DNA from: an uncultured Christensenellaceae bacterium
Lineage (GTDB): Bacteria; Bacillota; Clostridia; Christensenellales; UBA3700
DNA length: 64,000 nucleotides
Assembly (NCBI GenBank): GCA_944376205.1
Contig: CALWBV010000003.1
Span: forward strand, 24,059 to 88,058
Reading direction: 5' to 3'
In this document: piece by piece, positions 5,189 to 53,186 of the stretch
How positions within the stretch are numbered: the first letter of the stretch is position 1
Layout of the letters: each line of letters starts with the position of its first letter
Made by a program: the position numbers and the translations under genes
Notes under the pieces: model-generated
Seen by the model: only the letters and a program-made list of their open reading frames with translations
Databases searched by the model: none
What the model was told of the DNA's origin: nothing

Positions 5189-5926
5189 CTATTTTTTAAT
5201 GAAGCTTCTTATAAGGCATATAATTGCCAAAATAAGGTTGATTGAAGCGAGTATGAGATAGTAATCGGAAAAGGGCGTTACGAGACTTATAGCGACCAAT
5301 AAGAGGCTTACAGCTACAAATCTGAAACCGTTTCTTCTTGTAAAAGCGCTTTCGAATATCAAAGAGAGAAGTTGAATTTTGTTTACCTTTTGATTTTGAA
5401 CTTGAGGCAAGCGATTTAGCGATTTGAGTTTGCGATAGAGCGGCTTGAACGATTCAAAGGTAATCACGACGTCCCCGAATCTTTTTACAAACGATAATGA
5501 TTTTTTATCGGAATTGGTGGTAAGTATTTTTGCTTTTTTTATGCCGTCTTTGGCGCAAATTCTGTAAAGTCTCACGAGAGTATCGGCGGACAGTCTTCCG
5601 TACTTCGTCCATAGAAATACGGCGGTATCGTCGGTAAGCAGATATTCGCCTTTGTCTTCAATGTTTTTGCTGTCTGTTACATCGGATAACAAGGTCTTTG
5701 TATAATCTTCGCCTTGCCATATGAGATACGTTATGAAGTTGCGGTAACTCATAGCGTGTTTTTTGTCTCTGAAAAAGATTTTGCAAATACTTCCGATTAT
5801 GACGAAAGTTGTCAGCATGGAAGTAACAAGTTGCATTGCAAAGGGCATTGCAACAAAACTCAATAGTATGTATGTTATGATAAAGATTATGATAGTCAGC
5901 AATATCACGTCAAAAAAATATGCCAT
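5189..5926 (-). CDS. hypothetical integral membrane protein (N-terminal TM helices, about 150-aa soluble domain, C-terminal TM pair)
   Basis: Long ORF with clear hydrophobic segments (YFFDVILLTIIIFIITYILLSFV, FRFVAVSLLLVAISLV, YYLILASINLILAIICLI). Start is uncertain: 5926 was chosen because a nadD promoter-like TTGCTA-17-TAAAAT sits at about 5975-6003. Alternatives 6019 and 6151 would overlap the nadD region. No family recognised. Confidence 0.5.
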   Translation of the reverse strand: MAYFFDVILLTIIIFIITYILLSFVAMPFAMQLVTSMLTTFVIIGSICKIFFRDKKHAMSYRNFITYLIWQGEDYTKTLLSDVTDSKNIEDKGEYLLTDDTAVFLWTKYGRLSADTLVRLYRICAKDGIKKAKILTTNSDKKSLSFVKRFGDVVITFESFKPLYRKLKSLNRLPQVQNQKVNKIQLLSLIFESAFTRRNGFRFVAVSLLLVAISLVTPFSDYYLILASINLILAIICLIRSFIKK

Positions 5927-6025: not shown

Positions 6026-7129
6026 ATGATTATAATTTTCGGCGGGGCTTTCAATCCCGTACACGACGAACATGTCAATATGATAAAATATCTTTTGGAC
6101 AGAAAGGAAGTTGAAAAGGTGGTAGTATTGCCTTCTTTCAATCCTCCGCACAAAAGCTGTCCTACGTCATACTCGCAGCGCAGAGAAATGTTACAATTGG
6201 CGCTACGCGGTATCGACCGAATTGAGATATGCGATTATGAAAACACCGACAATAAAAAGCATTATACGGTAGAAACTCTTCCTTATCTCAAAAATATATA
6301 CAAGGATATTGCGTTTGTCATAGGCGGAGACAGTCTCGAAGCGCTTGACAAATGGAAAAATCCCCAGAAAATAATAAAAATCTGTCCGTTGTACGTGTTT
6401 ACAAGAGGAAAGAGCGAGGGCTTTGACAAAGCGCTTGAATATTGGAGAAGTAAGGGGGCGGATATCGTAGTTTGCGATTATCACCCCGATGACGTGTCGT
6501 CGACGCTGATACGTTACAATATAATGCTGGGCGTCTATGACGATATCAATCCCGACGTGGCGGAATATATCAGAGAAAATAAACTTTACGATTCGTTCAG
6601 AGGTATTCTCGATAAACTCAAAGAATCTCTTATTCCCAAGACATACGAGCATAGTCTGCGCACGGCAAAATATGCTTTGAGACTCAATTACAAGCTGGCG
6701 TTGGGACTTGATTATGACAAAGTTTTTCTTGCGGGAGTATTGCACGACTGCGCAAAGAATATGTGCGCCGAACCTCATGATACGCAATGCGTTCCGAGCG
6801 ACAGTATAGGTTCGCCTGTCGAACATCAGTTTTTAGGAGCGATAGTTGCAAAAAACGGATACGGCATCGAAGATAAAGACGTGCTTAATGCGATAAAGTA
6901 TCACACGACGGGTAAAAAAGAGATGTCTCCGCTTGAGAAATTGATTTTTTGCAGCGATATGCTTGAAGAAAAAAGAGATTTTGAGGGTGTGGAGGAGCTG
7001 CGAAAAAGTATAGAGAAATCCCTTGACGAGGGGTACAGAGATTGCGTATTGCATCAATATGCATATTTGAGTGCAAGAGGCGGCGAAATTTATCCTTTGA
7101 CTTTGCAGGCGGTTGAAGGGGTAAAGTAA
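6026..7129 (+). CDS. nadD: fused nicotinate-nucleotide adenylyltransferase (NadD) and YqeK-type HD phosphohydrolase
   Basis: N-terminal GGAFNPVHDEH nucleotidyltransferase motif. C-terminal HD domain (HSLRTAKYA...GVLHDCAK...KYHTTG), which is a separate yqeK gene in Bacillus. Confidence 0.85.
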   Translation: MIIIFGGAFNPVHDEHVNMIKYLLDRKEVEKVVVLPSFNPPHKSCPTSYSQRREMLQLALRGIDRIEICDYENTDNKKHYTVETLPYLKNIYKDIAFVIGGDSLEALDKWKNPQKIIKICPLYVFTRGKSEGFDKALEYWRSKGADIVVCDYHPDDVSSTLIRYNIMLGVYDDINPDVAEYIRENKLYDSFRGILDKLKESLIPKTYEHSLRTAKYALRLNYKLALGLDYDKVFLAGVLHDCAKNMCAEPHDTQCVPSDSIGSPVEHQFLGAIVAKNGYGIEDKDVLNAIKYHTTGKKEMSPLEKLIFCSDMLEEKRDFEGVEELRKSIEKSLDEGYRDCVLHQYAYLSARGGEIYPLTLQAVEGVK

Positions 7130-7302: not shown

Positions 7303-7671
7303 ATGGAAAAATACCAATTGATTTGCAAACTTCTCGATGAGAAAAAAGCCAGAGATATCACGATTGTGGATATCGAACATCTTACCATAATTGCCGACAA
7401 ATTCGTTATCTGTTCGGCAAGATCGAATACGCAGGTAAAAGCACTTGTGGATATTGTCGACGAGGGAATGAGTAAAGAAGGCTTTGAACCTTTGAGAGTC
7501 GAGGGAAAACAGGAAGGAAGATGGGCGATAATGGATTACGGCGACGTAATAGTCCACATATTCTACGAAGAAACGAGAAAACTTTATTCGCTTGAACAGC
7601 TGTGGTCGGACGGAAGCAATATCACTCATTACGGCACAGAAGAGAGTGTAATAAACGGCGAAAAGGAATAA
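7303..7671 (+). CDS. rsfS: ribosome silencing factor RsfS (iojap family)
   Basis: 122 aa; DITIVDI...ADKFVICSARSNTQVKAL...WAIMDYGDVIVHIF..E.R..Y.LE.LW; AGGAG RBS. Confidence 0.9.
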   Translation: MEKYQLICKLLDEKKARDITIVDIEHLTIIADKFVICSARSNTQVKALVDIVDEGMSKEGFEPLRVEGKQEGRWAIMDYGDVIVHIFYEETRKLYSLEQLWSDGSNITHYGTEESVINGEKE

Positions 7672-7828
7672 TATATCGACCGATATAAAAGACAACGTTT
7701 TGCTGTTTTGAATACTAATATAAGATAAATATTATTTTTTGGAAACTATACCGATGCGTTATGTGTTTTTCAAAAAGCGAAACAATTTTTAATAATATTT
7801 TAAAATTTAAAATACACCAAGATATGCA

Positions 7829-7866
7829 TAAAAAAGACAAATAACTCATTAAAAAGTTATTTGTCT
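7829..7866 (-). terminator. intrinsic terminator of the 566-aa orphan gene
   Basis: Perfect 12-bp stem agacaaataact/agttatttgtct (7835-7846 / 7855-7866). The plus-strand A-run at 7830-7835 gives a U-tract on the minus strand, 29 nt after the stop. Confidence 0.8.
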
Positions 7867-7894
7867 TCAGTTTAACTAAATCACTGTCAGTTTT

Positions 7895-9595
7895 TTATTT
7901 TTCTTCATCCATTGCACTAAACAAATCATAATACGTGTTGTATTTGTCGAGTTTTAATCCATCTACAGTTACTTCATTATAATCTTGGCTATCATAATTT
8001 GTTTTTACCGCACTTAAAATAGCATCTATTACTTCTAGATTTGTTTGATCTTTGCCATTGTTATTATATTTAAATGATGTTGTAAATTCTGAACCATCAA
8101 CATTAACAATAACAGCAGAAATTTCATAATCATTTTTGCTGCCTATCATTGCTCTTGCAATGTCATTATTTGAAAGATATACATTATTAACTTCATAAAA
8201 TTCTCTTAAATTAGAATAATCAGTATAAGTCATTAAACTTTCATTACTAATGTCTGAGATGATTTTTTGCAATTCTCCATCAGTCATTTCATTATCATCA
8301 AGATAATCTTTAATATTTTGGACACTTGCAATTTGCAGACAATTAATCGTTTCAACTAATCCATCCACAATTGAATGTCTTACAGAATAAATTTTTATAT
8401 TATTTATTTCCGCATTAAAATTTATTATTACCTTTTTAACTTTAGAGTTGTTTGGCGAAATATTTGTAAAATCTATTTTTGTTAATTGTTGTTCTTCAAA
8501 TGTTTTTACCAAATACTCTTGTACAGATTGTTCAATCAAATTTAAATCGTTAAGTAAAATATCAGAATATTCTTTAGCAATAGTTGATTGATTTACAAGA
8601 GAAGGAATATCACTGCTTGATAGATCAATATTGGCAAATAAATTTTCCATATATTGTTCTATTATTTCTTGTTCAAGTTCCTTTCCATCATCAGCGCCTA
8701 AAATTTCTTCTGCACTTTTTGGCAACTTGCTAACATCTGCGACAATTTCTTCTTTAGTGAACTTTTCAAAAGCGTTTTTATATATTTCTAAACGCTTTAG
8801 CGCTTCTTCTCCATTTACTTTTGCGTTCCAATTTGCAGAAGCTTTAACTAATGAATTAATTTTATTTTTAACATCGTTTTGCGCTTCAGTAATATTTTGA
8901 ACGTAATCTTCTTTAATTACATTTATTTCTTTATCATATGTGTTAATTTGAGAATTAATAGCTGAAGCAATACTCCAAATCCCCCCTACTGTTGCAGCCA
9001 CAGCAACAACTGTCGATAAAGTGATCAGAGTTGCGTTAGTTTTTGGAAAATATAAATATAATGCTTTGTTGAGTAATAAATTCCAAACAGTCAATCCGCT
9101 TTCAAGATCATCTAAACTGCAAAACAATGTCTTTGCTTTTGTTTTTCCTGATTTGAATATAATATCTTGAGTTGTTTTATGAATAAGCTTAAGTAATTGT
9201 TTTTCATTATTTTTATCAAAATATTCTATTTCTAATTCGGCTTGTTTCTTTGATTTTACTTTTGGGGTATTATCTTTGTTAAGTTTACCAGTATTAACCT
9301 TTACTTCTCCATGGCGAATAAAAGTTATTGCCTTGTCAAAATCATCCTTTGACAAACGTGAAATATATTCACCATTTTTCAAATAAATACTATTTTTTAC
9401 AGCATATTCTAAATTGTCTATATTGTCTTCAATAATCTCTTTTGTTTTTTGTAATGTTGACTTAAATGTTTTGCTTTTTATGAGTCCTTCAAGATTTTCT
9501 CTGAGCTTTTTTATAGTAACTAAATACTCTTCGATAACTTTATTTTTTCTTTCCTCTTCTTTATCGTATTTTAACCAACCAAGTTCTTTTGCCAT
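7895..9595 (-). CDS. orphan hypothetical protein, 566 aa, N/K/I/E-rich, one central TM segment followed by a predicted coiled coil
   Basis: Uninterrupted ORF with a strong RBS (AAAAGGAGAG, 4 nt, ATG) and its own terminator. TM segment LITLSTVVAVAATVGGIWSIASAI. Heptad-like stretch NSQINTYDKEINVIKEDYVQNITEAQNDVKNKINSL. Visibly more AT-rich than the flanks. No domain recognised. Confidence 0.75.
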   Translation of the reverse strand: MAKELGWLKYDKEEERKNKVIEEYLVTIKKLRENLEGLIKSKTFKSTLQKTKEIIEDNIDNLEYAVKNSIYLKNGEYISRLSKDDFDKAITFIRHGEVKVNTGKLNKDNTPKVKSKKQAELEIEYFDKNNEKQLLKLIHKTTQDIIFKSGKTKAKTLFCSLDDLESGLTVWNLLLNKALYLYFPKTNATLITLSTVVAVAATVGGIWSIASAINSQINTYDKEINVIKEDYVQNITEAQNDVKNKINSLVKASANWNAKVNGEEALKRLEIYKNAFEKFTKEEIVADVSKLPKSAEEILGADDGKELEQEIIEQYMENLFANIDLSSSDIPSLVNQSTIAKEYSDILLNDLNLIEQSVQEYLVKTFEEQQLTKIDFTNISPNNSKVKKVIINFNAEINNIKIYSVRHSIVDGLVETINCLQIASVQNIKDYLDDNEMTDGELQKIISDISNESLMTYTDYSNLREFYEVNNVYLSNNDIARAMIGSKNDYEISAVIVNVDGSEFTTSFKYNNNGKDQTNLEVIDAILSAVKTNYDSQDYNEVTVDGLKLDKYNTYYDLFSAMDEEK

Positions 9596-9728
9596 AATTC
9601 TCTCCTTTTATGGCTATATTATATTTATTTTAACATAAAGATTTTATTTTGTAAAGTTATTAAAAAGTAATTCGCCGATGTAAAAAAACGTTTTTATGCG
9701 TTAACTTTAGTATAATTTGCCTTATTTC

Positions 9729-9759
9729 AAAAATCGCCCGTATGACGGGATGACGGGCG
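9729..9759 (-). terminator. terminator-like hairpin on the minus strand at the right edge of the AT-rich segment
   Basis: cgcccgt (9735-9741) pairs with acgggcg (9753-9759). The arm is duplicated in tandem (tgacggga tgacgggc). The A5 run at 9729-9733 gives a U-tract on the minus strand. No minus-strand gene lies directly upstream of it. Confidence 0.4.
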
Positions 9760-9868
9760 GAGGTTTATTCTCTTATCAAGCGCAGGAGTCGTCTGGATTG
9801 AATAGCCTGCAATTGCGCCAATGTATAAATTCTTCAAAATCCGACAAAATATTAATCGGAGGTTAATT

Positions 9869-10566: not shown

Positions 10567-11325
10567 TCAGTTATTTTTAGATGTATCAGTATCGGAAATC
10601 TTTGTTTCGGATATGTTGTCTTGTGAAGCGTTTTGAGTATCTTCGGTGTTATTTTTCAAATTCTCGCTATTGTCGTCGATATCTTTTTCTATATTCGAAG
10701 AATCGCTTTTGCGGGGCGATTTAGAGAATTTTACGAGTACACCTTGCAGAGGTTTTGCGATTATCACTGCCATAACGCTTATGATTGCGCATTTTAAGAA
10801 CGTATAAGGCATATTGAATATTGCAAGTACTTCCCAAAGACCATTGGACGAAGGACGGATTTGTTGATACATTCCGATTATCGCCGTCATAGGCAAGAGG
10901 AATTTGTCATACAGAGGATATACTATCAAAGCGTTGAGAACGAGTCCTGCGAAAAATCCGCTTACCACGCTACCGACTGCGAGACCGAGAATAAGCCCTT
11001 TGTAGTTGGGGATTTTTTTGTATATTAGAGAAAAGGGGAGGATCATGCAAAGGCAAACGAAAAAGTCTGCCATATCTCCGATGCCGCCTGTTGCGCCGAA
11101 GCCCTTAAAAATAAGATGAATCAAATCCTTAAAAAGCGCAATTGTAATTCCGCTTAAAGGACCGAGTGCCACGCTGCCGATAAGACAGGGTAACAGTGAG
11201 AAATCAAACTGTATAAACGTGGGCATAAGGGGAACGGGCATTTCCCAAAAATACAGAACGCTTGCCATAGCGGCAAGAATAGCCGTGGTAGCAAGCCACT
11301 TGCTTCTAGAAATTGAATTATTCAT
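10567..11325 (-). CDS. ribU: riboflavin ECF-transporter substrate-specific (S) component with a 55-aa low-complexity C-terminal tail
   Basis: Six hydrophobic helices typical of ECF S components. Sits directly behind an FMN riboswitch. Tail: SKSPRKSDSSNIEKDIDDNSENLKNNTEDTQNASQDNISETKISDTDTSKNN. Confidence 0.8.
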   Translation of the reverse strand: MNNSISRSKWLATTAILAAMASVLYFWEMPVPLMPTFIQFDFSLLPCLIGSVALGPLSGITIALFKDLIHLIFKGFGATGGIGDMADFFVCLCMILPFSLIYKKIPNYKGLILGLAVGSVVSGFFAGLVLNALIVYPLYDKFLLPMTAIIGMYQQIRPSSNGLWEVLAIFNMPYTFLKCAIISVMAVIIAKPLQGVLVKFSKSPRKSDSSNIEKDIDDNSENLKNNTEDTQNASQDNISETKISDTDTSKNN

Positions 11326-11332
11326 AAAAGTA

Positions 11333-11454
11333 TCCTTTTCCTATCCAGACTATACTGTCGGTACAAGAATTTCACTTGTTCGGCGCCGTATAAAAAAATT
11401 TGCGGCGTTTGCGGACTTTACCGCCGGTGAGGAATTTCACCTGCCCTCAAAGAA
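11333..11454 (-). promoter_or_regulatory. FMN riboswitch (RFN element) controlling ribU
   Basis: The minus strand reads ..gagggcaggtgaaattcctcaccggcggtaaagtccgc...gaacaagtgaaattcttgtaccgacagtatagtctggataggaaaagga, matching the RFN core. The 3' strand of P1 (aaagga) is also the ribU Shine-Dalgarno, 8 nt before the ATG. Confidence 0.9.
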
Positions 11455-11470
11455 TTATTTGATTATCGAC

Positions 11471-18621: not shown

Positions 18622-18664
18622 TAGAATATAGAATATAAAATAATCACATAAGCAATGAATTACG

Positions 18665-18693
18665 GCGGAGCGCAGAGCGCTCCGTATTTTTTT
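18665..18693 (+). terminator. intrinsic terminator of icd
   Basis: cggagcgc-aga-gcgctccg followed by T7. Confidence 0.85.
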
Positions 18694-19131
18694 GGTATCA
18701 GAAAACCGCTAGAGTGACAAGTGGATGTTTATTGAATTTTCTGACTGTGACGGATTGACTGATATAGGTGATAGAAAAGCGATAAGTCAAATCGTCACGA
18801 AGACAACAGAGGACACTCTGTGTATTTTTCTTTGTATGTTATAAGGTTTACTATAAAATAAAATATTTACGATTAAAATTTCGATATCAGATTATCACGA
18901 GCAAACCGAAAGGGGAATTTTTATGGAAAATTTGCAACTGTTTTTTTACAAAAAACAAATATTGTGCATAAAAAAGCGATTTAATCTGTTTGAGAGGGTT
19001 GTTTTGTATTCCCGAATGTCTTAAAAATTTATCAAAAATCACCGCTCTTTTGCAATAAATCTCTCAATATGACGAAGAGTATGGAAAAAATAAAATAATC
19101 TTGTTTGAGAAAATTTGAAAATCAAACCGTT

Positions 19132-19290
19132 TTATCCATAAAGCTGAACATGTTCAAAATAAATTTAACCTTAAAATTTGCGACATGTGTAACTTTAAAA
19201 AGTGTGGATAATCCAACACTCATGTGGATAACTTTGTGGATAACCCCACTTTTTCCCGTAAAAACACGTATTTTCCCGTATTGTGGATAA
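19132..19290. promoter_or_regulatory. DnaA-box cluster: four perfect and one near-perfect box
   Basis: tgtggataa (the complement of TTATCCACA) at 19203-19211, 19223-19231, 19235-19243 and 19282-19290, all in the same orientation. ttatccata at 19132-19140 in the opposite orientation. An exact 10-mer direct repeat ttttcccgta at 19251-19260 and 19271-19280. Confidence 0.8.
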
Positions 19291-19450
19291 AAAAAATACA
19301 CAAAACCCGTTATGTCTATATAGTGCTGTAAAAGTCCCGAAAAATGCAAAGTTTTATGTCTGAAAAATCCTTGCTTTTATATATTTTATTGTGCTAATAT
19401 ATTAGTGTAATTTTTTTAGAAGATTTTCTAATTTTAAGGAGAGTTTTATT

Positions 19451-52920: not shown

Positions 52921-53186
52921 CTGTGCATCTGTTGTCGATAGTGACTACCCAAGCGTTACCAAAACAGTTAACTCCTCCAAAGCTACCTTGTGGCACATCA
53001 AACGGTCTGCTTAATGCTGCTACGGTCAAGTCCTGACATGGTTCACAGTGAATGATTGCACAAGACCTTGGTATCAACATCACTTATTAAGGGCAGGCCT
53101 CACATAGCCAAAACCTCGAACAGCGTTCAGTCCTGCTATTGCGGATTGCAGGTACAGGGCACCGCAAGCTCCCCACCTAGCACAGC
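52921..53186 (-). ncRNA. ffs: signal recognition particle RNA, long Bacillus type (about 266 nt, with an Alu-like domain)
   Basis: The minus strand reads gctgtgctaggtggggagcttgcggtgccctgtacctgcaatccgc...gaaccatgtcaggacttgaccgtagcagcattaagcag...taacgcttgggtagtcactatcgacaacagatgcacag. This is collinear with B. subtilis scRNA as I recall it, including the helix-8 GUCAGG...AGCAGC motif. The ends are approximate. Confidence 0.85.

What the first reader, a model, noticed from the sequence alone, without database searches (positions are those of the whole stretch)
7672..9760. AT-rich insertion carrying a single self-contained orphan gene (566-aa TM and coiled-coil protein) next to the conserved yqe cluster
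Seen in the sequence:
- Immediately after the rsfS stop (7671), the sequence becomes markedly more AT-rich until about 9725. This is judged by eye and was not computed.
- The segment holds one gene on the opposite strand to its neighbours. It has a strong RBS (AAAAGGAGAG) and a perfect 12-bp-stem terminator (7835-7866).
- Its amino-acid composition is N/K/I/E-dominated, unlike the neighbouring proteins.
- The protein has an N-terminal region of about 190 aa, one strongly hydrophobic helix (LITLSTVVAVAATVGGIWSIASAI), a heptad-like coiled-coil stretch, and a C-terminal region of about 200 aa. I recognise no motif in any of these.
- The right edge is marked by a minus-strand terminator-like hairpin (9735-9759) whose arm is tandemly duplicated (tgacggga tgacgggc). 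It would insulate the gene from upstream transcription.

Inference: this is a horizontally acquired single-gene cassette. Single membrane/coiled-coil proteins in such islands are often abortive-infection or defence effectors, surface proteins or phage remnants. Nothing in the sequence assigns it to any of these.
Basis: partly seen in the sequence, partly recalled or inferred. Interest (0 to 1): 0.55.

Follow-up and report, generated by a model that had tools for sequence, protein, structure and literature searches.

The report
Foreign AT-rich membrane-protein gene cassette
One gut Christensenellaceae species carries a 2-kb piece of foreign, AT-rich DNA between two housekeeping genes; it holds a single intact gene for a membrane-anchored protein from a tiny, fast-changing family of unknown function, which is an ordinary kind of event involving an undescribed protein.

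Summary
Window 7672-9734 has 26.6% GC against a window mean of 41.8%, the lowest 2-kb stretch in 64 kb. The gene's GC3 is 0.17 against 0.46±0.06 for the other ORFs.

The segment holds one 566-aa ORF (7895-9595, minus strand) with an RBS, an extended -10 promoter and a 15-bp terminator.

Nineteen related Christensenellaceae species keep nadD-yqeK/rsfS/ylaJ-like/ribU/tsaE synteny without the gene. Every sampled strain of this species has it. It is therefore a species-specific horizontal acquisition.

The protein matches nothing in Pfam, NCBIfam, PHROGs, PADLOC, PDB, or the phage and plasmid collections. Among about 15 billion proteins only one other lineage carries relatives. That lineage is a ~30% GC bacterium from the same sample series, where the gene has native composition and follows a phage-type HD hydrolase beside an rRNA operon.

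The protein is predicted to have its N-terminus inside the cell and its C-terminus outside: a basic N-region, one transmembrane helix, a helical stalk and a conserved acidic C-terminal domain.

Alleles are recombination mosaics with dN/dS of 0.4-0.8 but stay intact.

Function is unresolved. My best guess is a cell-surface protein involved in conflict with phages or other mobile elements. Structure prediction failed and no defence link was found. Interest is modest.

The parts
7672..9734 (.). AT-rich inserted segment (26.6% GC) between the rsfS stop codon and host-like DNA
   Evidence: change points at 7660 and 9734; empty sites in 19 related species
7895..9595 (-). 566-aa ORF, the only gene in the segment
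   Evidence: the N-terminal 'MA' start is conserved in all family members; intact, with in-frame indels only, in 8 alleles
9600..9609 (-). Ribosome-binding site AAAAGGAGAG, 4-5 nt before the ATG
   Evidence: read directly from the sequence
9627..9655 (-). Sigma-70-type promoter candidate: TTTACA, 17 nt, TGtTAAAAT (10/12 matches, extended -10). Both hexamers and the spacing are kept in strain L007.
   Evidence: compared with L007 by eye
7827..7868 (-). Intrinsic terminator of the gene: 15-bp AT-rich stem followed by U6. The same hairpin forms on the plus strand behind rsfS with a poor tail.
   Evidence: -17.8 kcal/mol, z -5.2 on the minus strand; -14.0, z -5.5 on the plus strand
9035..9595 (-). 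Codes aa 1-187: the basic N-terminal region (net charge +8), predicted cytoplasmic. It is helical for aa 1-95 and has a small strand-rich part at aa 120-160. This region is swappable between family members.
8963..9034 (-). Codes aa 188-211: the single transmembrane helix, with a conserved face of small residues (A200, G204, S208, A212; V199, A200 and G204/G205 are invariant in the family)
8516..8962 (-). Codes aa 212-360: an acidic helical stalk (AlphaFold2 helices 206-255, 263-281, 309-319, 330-359; best pLDDT about 80)
7898..8515 (-). Codes aa 361-566: the conserved acidic mixed helix/strand C-terminal domain, predicted to lie outside the membrane. It carries invariant motifs LTKIDF, TYTDYS, DIAxAM, YNNNGKDxTN and VKTNYDS.
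9703..9821 (.). 119-nt strain-variable segment of host-like GC (44%; 52% for 9731-9821). It carries the GC-rich hairpin at 9735-9759 with the tandem 8-mer. It borders the cassette but is not needed by it, and may be a relic of the old rsfS-ylaJ spacer.

Best explanation
Origin. A roughly 2-kb piece of foreign low-GC DNA was inserted between the rsfS stop codon and the ylaJ-like gene. This happened on the branch leading to one Christensenellaceae species, and the insert is now fixed in that species. It is a self-contained transcription unit (promoter, RBS, one ORF, terminator) reading against its neighbours.

Product (inferred). The protein is a functional membrane protein with one transmembrane helix, its N-terminus inside the cell and its C-terminus outside. 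A basic N-terminal region of about 187 aa stays in the cytoplasm. The transmembrane helix has a conserved face of small residues that probably packs helices together. A helical stalk holds a conserved acidic domain of about 200 aa outside the membrane.

Family. The family is tiny, evolves fast and is rebuilt by recombination of whole segments. Its home is a low-GC bacterium from the same sample series, where the gene follows a phage-type HD phosphohydrolase next to an rRNA operon.

Function (inferred by analogy, not shown). The protein acts at the cell surface in a conflict-type interaction. The most likely version is interference with phage adsorption or DNA entry, or an infection-triggered membrane effect. 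It is not a housekeeping function.

Confidence by part: horizontal acquisition about 0.95; functional single-pass membrane protein about 0.75; conflict or phage-exclusion role about 0.3.
For: Foreign origin:
- GC is 0.266 against 0.418 and GC3 is 0.171 against 0.464±0.057.
- The gene is absent from the syntenic rsfS-ylaJ interval in 19 related species.
- It is present in every same-species contig that reaches the site.
- Relatives have native composition in ~29-30% GC contigs.
- Both organisms occur in the same three sample series.

Own expression signals.

Evidence that it is functional:
- Eight alleles are intact with in-frame indels only.
- The probability of no stop codon after 63 neutral substitutions is 0.06.
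- dN/dS against the other lineage is about 0.47.

Topology: there is one transmembrane helix, the N-region has net charge +8 and the C-regions -14 and -16, and relatives have KKIRR on the N-side of the helix.

Fast, mosaic evolution:
- Within the species, dN/dS is 0.83 against 0.0-0.4 for most neighbouring genes (the short rimI reaches 0.84).
- Divergent blocks have dS 0.08-0.27, against about 0.05 in the flanks.
- In the low-GC species the first ~1-1.4 kb of the gene is replaced outright, between flanks that are 97.7% identical.
- P0005 is a chimera of the two types.
- A sister organism has an unalignable 751-aa protein of the same build in the same slot.

Phage link: the adjacent HD protein hits phrog_28876 at 7e-50 and is 43-51% identical to genes in 39 phage records.
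Against: - There is no hit to any PADLOC defence model for this gene or for its home-locus neighbours.
- There is no PHROG hit for the protein itself.
- No relative was found in IMG/VR, GenBank phages or plasmids.
- The window neighbours are housekeeping genes, not a defence island.
- No integrase, target duplication or terminal repeat marks the insertion.
- The home locus is syntenic between two sister organisms, so it looks chromosomal rather than freshly mobile.
- Both AlphaFold2 models are unreliable (pLDDT 45 and 42) and Foldseek found nothing.
- The topology rests on charge bias only.
- dN/dS near 0.8 within the species also fits relaxed constraint.
Confidence: 0.4

Rival explanations
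1. It is an accessory surface protein unrelated to phage or mobile-element conflict. For example, it could be an adhesin, or a cell-cell or host-interaction protein. Its variability would then be driven by host immunity or niche differences.
For: - The predicted exposed acidic domain sits on a stalk.
- Alleles are hypervariable and mosaic.
- The next gene in the home locus (317 or 488 aa, with an N-terminal signal-like helix) is also variable.
- No defence signature was found.
Against: - The protein has no signal peptide, cell-wall anchor or known adhesin domain.
- The part swapped most drastically is the predicted cytoplasmic N-terminal two-thirds, not the exposed head.
- The Foldseek hits to Sdr adhesins are meaningless (TM-score at most 0.25, on a model with pLDDT 42).
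Confidence: 0.3
2. It is a single-gene abortive-infection effector that sits in the membrane and, when triggered by infection, oligomerises and collapses the membrane potential. It would work like PdpSau or AbiP.
For: - It is a single autonomous gene of much lower GC than its host.
- The transmembrane helix has a conserved face of small residues, and in the 571-aa relatives a GxxxGxxxG motif (LGVLIGVLAG), which suggests helix packing.
- Membrane-anchored single-gene abortive-infection proteins exist (PMC10127798).
Against: - There are no PADLOC hits.
- PdpSau and AbiP have an N-terminal anchor and a basic cytoplasmic nucleic-acid-binding domain (PMC10127798). Here the transmembrane helix is mid-protein and about 355 acidic residues are predicted to lie outside the cell.
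- No toxicity or phage data exist.
Confidence: 0.12
3. It is a neutral or decaying passenger: the last remnant of a degraded mobile element, with no current function in this host.
For: - Within-species dN/dS is 0.83.
- Base composition has not shifted towards that of the host.
- No partner genes came with it, and the HD gene is absent from the window.
Against: - The gene is fixed in all sampled strains.
- Eight intact alleles show only in-frame indels.
- The probability of staying open under neutrality is 0.06 for one pair alone.
- The promoter, RBS and terminator are conserved between strains.
- The divergent blocks have dN/dS of 0.4-0.6, not 1.
Confidence: 0.1
4. It is a native, vertically inherited member of the yqe/rsfS gene cluster with unusual composition.
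For: It has a fixed position within the species.
Against: - It is absent from 19 related species with conserved synteny.
- Its GC3 lies 5 sd below that of the host genes.
- Its only relatives are in an unrelated low-GC genomic context.
Confidence: 0.01

Closest known systems
Phage 'morons': autonomous accessory cassettes in prophages (as defined in PMC2920897)
   Same: Both are single genes dropped between two otherwise adjacent conserved genes. Both have their own promoter and terminator and a GC content unlike the surroundings.
   Different: The flanking genes here are chromosomal housekeeping genes (rsfS and a ylaJ-like gene), not phage genes. No copy was found in any phage collection.
Membrane-anchored single-gene abortive-infection proteins PdpSau (S. 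aureus prophages) and AbiP (Lactococcus) (PMC10127798)
   Same: All are one gene encoding a membrane-anchored protein, are linked to mobile elements, and need no partner gene.
   Different: PdpSau is 278 aa with an N-terminal anchor and a positively charged cytoplasmic OB-fold domain. This protein is 566 aa with a mid-protein transmembrane helix and a large acidic region predicted to lie outside the cell. There is no sequence similarity and no phenotype data.
Prophage superinfection-exclusion envelope proteins of Gram-positive bacteria, such as Sie2009 and Ltp (from my own knowledge, not checked here)
   Same: These are envelope-located proteins of mobile-element origin with an extracytoplasmic working part. 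They are expressed on their own and evolve in step with phages.
   Different: Those proteins are much smaller and are encoded inside prophages. This gene has no prophage around it, and no PHROG or PADLOC model matches.
The 751-aa protein in the same genomic slot of a sister low-GC organism (L084 9549-11804)
   Same: It occupies the same slot after p160/p129/HD and before tRNA-Ala. It has the same build: a basic helical N-region, one transmembrane helix and an acidic C-region. A weak C-terminal motif matches (F-x-Y-x-N-x-GK; hhalign E 0.008).
   Different: There is no BLAST similarity and the hhalign probability is only 5%, so homology is unproven. It is 185 aa longer.

Membership tests
Known anti-phage defence systems (PADLOC-DB v2, including the Abi families) | Significant match of the protein to a defence-system HMM | tested here: not met
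   No families at E<=1 for the window protein. None for its relatives or home-locus neighbours.
Known anti-phage defence systems (PADLOC-DB v2, including the Abi families) | Reduces phage propagation when present | not testable with these tools
   This needs a phage challenge in an expressing host.
Phage moron | Own promoter and/or terminator | tested here: met
   A 10/12 extended -10 promoter and a 15-bp terminator with z -5.2. These are consensus and folding predictions only.
Phage moron | GC content differs from the surrounding genes | tested here: met
   GC is 0.266 against 0.418; GC3 is 5 sd below that of the other ORFs.
Phage moron | Inserted between genes of a phage or prophage, and found in more than one phage | tested here: not met
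   The flanks are rsfS and a ylaJ-like gene in synteny conserved across 19 species. There is no relative in IMG/VR or GenBank phages.
Superinfection-exclusion or PHROG-catalogued phage proteins | Match to a phage protein family | tested here: not met
   The best PHROG E-value is 0.1.
Curated protein families (Pfam-A, NCBIfam) and solved structures | Score above the family cut-off, or a significant PDB sequence or fold match | tested here: not met
   Best Pfam hit is 14.6 bits against a cut-off of 25. Best NCBIfam E-value is 0.07. The PDB profile search gave E 0.59. Foldseek E-values are at least 0.04, on low-confidence models.
Conserved yqe/rsfS housekeeping cluster | Present at the same position throughout the clade | tested here: not met
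   Absent from L011-L030, where the rsfS-to-ylaJ spacer is only about 80-300 bp.
Genomic islet acquired by horizontal transfer | Atypical composition, patchy phylogenetic distribution, and a closest relative in a distant genome of matching composition | tested here: met
Genomic islet acquired by horizontal transfer | Recognisable mobility signature (integrase, tRNA target, direct or inverted repeats) | tested here: not met
   There is no integrase or tRNA in the interval. The best flank-to-flank direct and inverted matches are no better than shuffles (p about 0.11).

The most novel reading that the evidence does not exclude
The gene is a founding member of an undescribed family of hypervariable, segment-swapping, single-pass membrane proteins of uncultured gut Bacillota. 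The family would work alone as an envelope-level barrier to phages or other mobile elements, and it moves between co-resident species as a promoter-to-terminator cassette without any recognisable mobility gene.
Probability: 0.2. Interest if true: 0.55.

Novelty: new member of a known kind. Interest (0 to 1): 0.33.

Why it matters
As an event this is routine: bacterial genomes are full of AT-rich, horizontally acquired genes with no known relatives.

Three things lift it slightly.
- The family is extremely rare. It forms 17 clusters in two lineages among about 15 billion proteins.
- Whole segments of the gene are exchanged between alleles at a fixed locus in both lineages.
- The gene became fixed in a species of Christensenellaceae, a heritable and health-associated gut family with almost no known phage biology.

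If the protein proved to be an autonomous envelope barrier to phages, it would add a new single-gene defence type and a handle on phage-host dynamics in uncultured gut Clostridia. If not, it remains one more uncharacterised accessory membrane protein.

Tried and rejected
- **Family assignment.** Pfam, NCBIfam, PHROGs and PADLOC gave nothing.
- **Remote homology.** An exhaustive phmmer search of 1.84 billion representatives found only its own cluster and one other. A profile search added nothing. A PDB profile search found nothing.
- **Structure.** AlphaFold2 on the full length (pLDDT 45) and on the C-terminal domain alone (pLDDT 42) failed because the alignment has 17 shallow sequences. Foldseek on these models gave only noise. 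I reject the Sdr-adhesin top hits (TM-score at most 0.25).
- **Mobile-element origin.** There is no relative in IMG/VR, GenBank phages, PLSDB plasmids or JGI metagenomes.
- **Within-species empty site.** A DNA search for the ylaJ leader in JGI metagenomes found no contig. An exact-RsfS look-up found only contigs that carry the gene.
- **Terminal repeats.** The 44-nt, 70%-complementary inverted repeat flanking the gene is no better than chance.
- **Non-coding RNA.** Rfam shows nothing in the cassette.
- **HD neighbour as yqeK.** I considered that the HD neighbour in the home locus might be yqeK, which would have meant conserved linkage to the yqe cluster. I rejected this: there is no yqeK equivalog hit, and the protein matches phage phrog_28876 instead.
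- **Flanking similarity to the donor-like locus.** There is none. The 77% nucleotide identity is confined to the coding sequence.
- **Taxonomy of the low-GC lineage.** This could not be established.
Full report
**1. The observation**

The AT-rich stretch is real and extreme. Window 7672-9725 has GC 0.266. The window mean is 0.418, with sd 0.037 for 2-kb windows, and no other 2-kb stretch of the 64 kb is lower. A cumulative-GC scan puts the edges at 7660 and 9734.

The segment contains one long ORF, 7895-9595 on the minus strand, encoding 566 aa. Its GC3 is 0.171, against 0.464±0.057 for 48 other ORFs of at least 150 aa. Its codon-usage distance from the pool is among the three largest.

- obg, yhbY, a fused nadD-yqeK and rsfS lie upstream on the plus strand.
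- A YhcN/YlaJ-like gene lies downstream on the plus strand.
- An ECF S-component, preceded by an FMN riboswitch (so ribU), follows on the minus strand.
- tsaE, tsaB and rimI come next.

**2. Expression signals**

- The RBS AAAAGGAGAG sits at 9600-9609, 4-5 nt before the ATG.
- The best promoter-like site in the region is TTTACA, 17 nt, TGtTAAAAT at 9655-9627 on the minus strand. Both hexamers and the spacing are kept in another strain.
- Downstream, a 15-bp AT-rich stem at 7833-7868 followed by U6 folds at -17.8 kcal/mol, z -5.2. The same hairpin forms on the plus strand behind rsfS, but with a poor tail.

The right-edge hairpin (9735-9759) with its tandem 8-mer exists but is weak (z -2.5 and -2.0). 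It lies in a 119-nt piece (9703-9821) with 44% GC. This piece is present in the window's strain group and missing in strains L007, L008, L072 and L082, which still carry the gene. It is therefore not a required part of the cassette. It may be a relic of the old rsfS-ylaJ spacer; this is inference.

**3. It is an insertion**

A scan of one genome per GTDB species with RsfS returned 56 loci. The closest are Christensenellaceae and Christensenella metagenome-assembled genomes. In 19 of them (L011, L013-L030; RsfS 73-91% identical), the order nadD-yqeK, rsfS, ylaJ-like, ribU, tsaE is kept. rsfS and ylaJ are only about 80-300 bp apart, and tblastn finds no trace of the 566-aa protein.

By contrast, every contig of the same species that reaches the site carries the gene. 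These contigs have flanks about 97-100% identical in nucleotide sequence. The gene was therefore gained on the branch to this species and is fixed in the sampled population.

No integrase, tRNA, target duplication or significant terminal repeat marks the insertion.

**4. Where it came from**

The family is almost empty.
- A word-seeded search of 5.8 billion clusters found 17 proteins.
- An exhaustive phmmer search of 1.84 billion representatives found only two clusters.
- A profile search added none.

Four clusters (88-100% identical) are alleles in this species. The other 13 come from contigs of 29-30% GC, where the gene's own GC (29%) is native.

In that low-GC organism the gene sits in a fixed locus: 23S-5S rRNA, a 164-aa gene, a 130-aa gene, a 195-aa HD-domain gene, the homolog, then tRNA-Ala on the other strand. 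The HD protein is not yqeK. It matches phage family phrog_28876 at 7e-50, and it is 43-51% identical to genes in 39 phage records, where it lies among early or replication genes.

Both organisms turn up in the same three sample series: BRZ/ERZ247734xx-735xx, ERZ16268xxx and ERR106104xx.

Nucleotide similarity between the window gene and its nearest relative (L010) is 77% and stops at the ends of the coding sequence. The sampled low-GC organism is therefore a cousin of the donor, not the donor itself.

No relative exists in IMG/VR, GenBank phages, PLSDB plasmids or JGI metagenomes.

**5. The protein**

No Pfam, NCBIfam, PHROG, PADLOC or PDB match reaches significance.

There is one transmembrane helix, aa 188-211. 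The N-terminal 186 residues carry net charge +8. The two C-terminal regions carry -14 and -16. In the 571-aa relatives the helix is preceded by KKIRR. By the positive-inside rule the N-terminus is cytoplasmic and the C-terminal ~355 residues lie outside the cell. This is inferred, not shown.

The helix has a conserved face of small residues (A200, G204, S208, A212), and the relatives have GxxxGxxxG at the same place. This hints at helix-helix packing.

AlphaFold2 gives long helices after the transmembrane helix (206-255, with pLDDT up to about 80) and a mixed helix/strand C-terminal domain. Overall confidence is too low to use (pLDDT 45 for the full length, 42 for the domain alone), and Foldseek returns noise.

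The C-terminal 206 residues are the conserved core of the family: 56-57% identity between lineages, against 22-35% for the rest in the 571-aa type. They carry many invariant polar motifs.

**6. How it evolves**

Between the window and strain L007 the gene has the same dS as its flanks (0.044) but a dN/dS of 0.83. Most neighbouring genes lie between 0.0 and 0.4, though the short rimI reaches 0.84.

The divergence is blocky.
- In L007 and L073 only aa 401-566 differ (dS 0.08-0.16).
- In L082 only aa 1-300 differ (dS 0.16-0.27).
- The rest of the gene in each case is nearly identical.

These blocks are older than the species' own diversity (flank dS about 0.05) and have dN/dS of 0.4-0.6. They are therefore imported or long-maintained alleles joined by recombination.

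All eight alleles are intact, and their indels are in frame. Sixty-three neutral substitutions would leave the frame open only 6% of the time. The gene is thus kept functional.

The same behaviour is more extreme in the low-GC organism. L010 and L067 are 97.7% identical up to the start codon and over the last 683 nt of the gene, but the first 1.0-1.4 kb is unalignable. The L010 version of that part resembles the window gene (74% and 66% aa identity).

In a sister organism, the slot after HD holds a 751-aa protein with no BLAST similarity. That organism's rRNA is 98% identical, HD 90%, p130 88%, and Alr and Zip 66-70% identical at the protein level. Yet the 751-aa protein has the same build: a basic helical N-region, one transmembrane helix and an acidic C-region. 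It also shows a weak C-terminal motif match (hhalign E 0.008, probability 5%).

**7. What it most likely does**

Shown:
- The gene is a foreign, autonomous single-gene unit.
- It is fixed in one species.
- It is kept open by selection.
- It encodes a protein with one transmembrane helix.
- Its family is rare, fast-evolving and rebuilt by segment exchange.

Inferred:
- N-in/C-out topology.
- Oligomerisation through the transmembrane helix and stalk.
- Display of a conserved acidic head outside the membrane.

By analogy only: the combination of foreign origin, a self-contained cassette like a phage moron (PMC2920897), envelope location and allele swapping at a fixed locus is what one sees in genes caught in conflicts with phages or other mobile elements. 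Membrane-anchored single-gene abortive-infection proteins are known (PdpSau, AbiP; PMC10127798). I put about 0.3 on a phage or mobile-element exclusion role including the abortive-infection variant, about 0.3 on another surface role, about 0.1 on a functionless passenger, and the rest on something not considered.

Several things count against a defence role. There is no defence-model hit and no defence-island context. The protein has no copy in any phage. The part exchanged most drastically is the predicted cytoplasmic side, not the exposed head.

**8. Verdict**

The event is an ordinary kind: a horizontally acquired gene with almost no relatives, in an AT-rich islet. The protein family is undescribed, and its mosaic evolution is the one feature worth following up. 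The function could not be resolved with the tools available.

Noticed in passing
window 9703-9821: A 119-nt insertion/deletion polymorphism lies just upstream of the cassette's promoter. It has host-like GC (44%) and carries the GC-rich hairpin with a tandem 8-mer (tgacggga tgacgggc). It is present in the window's strain group and absent from L007, L008, L072 and L082. There is no second copy in the window.
   Followed up: partly
L010 2058-4130 compared with L067 2168-3883: Within the low-GC species, two alleles share 97.7%-identical flanks and the last 683 nt of the gene, but have unalignable first 1.0-1.4 kb. The 690-aa allele is a chimera of a window-like N-part and a 571-type C-domain, with an extra ~115-aa N-terminal extension.
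   Followed up: yes
L084 9549-11804 and 12157-13623: A sister low-GC organism has a 751-aa protein of the same build but without BLAST similarity in the slot after the HD gene. The next gene (488 aa there, 317 aa in L067, with a signal-like N-terminus) is also only partly conserved (56% over the first 205 aa). The region downstream of this rRNA operon looks like a hotspot of variable envelope proteins.
   Followed up: partly
L067 1082-2072 compared with L084 8473-9459: The 130-aa and HD proteins are 88-90% identical between the two low-GC organisms. Housekeeping Alr and Zip on the same contigs are only 66-70% identical. This suggests either strong constraint or recent exchange of that block.
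   Followed up: no
L068 6192-7232 (minus strand): A gene with Viral_Rep (PF02407) and RNA_helicase hits lies about 2 kb downstream of the homolog in one low-GC contig. It replaces the chromosomal continuation seen in L067 and L009, so it is a possible small integrated replicon.
   Followed up: no
L076 6308-6735: One metagenome contig matches the window up to 9609, just past the RBS, and then switches to unrelated DNA that looks much more GC-rich. It is probably a chimeric assembly, but it could be a rearranged copy.
   Followed up: partly
window 11329-11458 (minus strand): An FMN riboswitch (98.9 bits) lies directly upstream of the ECF S-component gene 10567-11325. This supports calling that gene ribU.
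   Followed up: yes
window 6026-7129: nadD and yqeK are fused into one 367-aa ORF (CTP_transf_like plus HD domains). The fusion is kept in all close relatives (L011-L030).
   Followed up: partly
window 5189-5926 (minus strand): A 245-aa gene with no Pfam or NCBIfam match, of lowish GC (0.37), reads against the yqe cluster between yhbY and nadD. Unlike the 566-aa gene, it is conserved at this position in the related species checked.
   Followed up: partly
window 18622-19450: An ~830-bp AT-rich (30-34% GC) stretch with only short ORFs (none over 75 aa) lies between the isocitrate dehydrogenase gene and purE. No Rfam family reaches threshold there.
   Followed up: no
window 52921-53185 (minus strand): A bacterial large SRP RNA gene (168.7 bits).
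   Followed up: no
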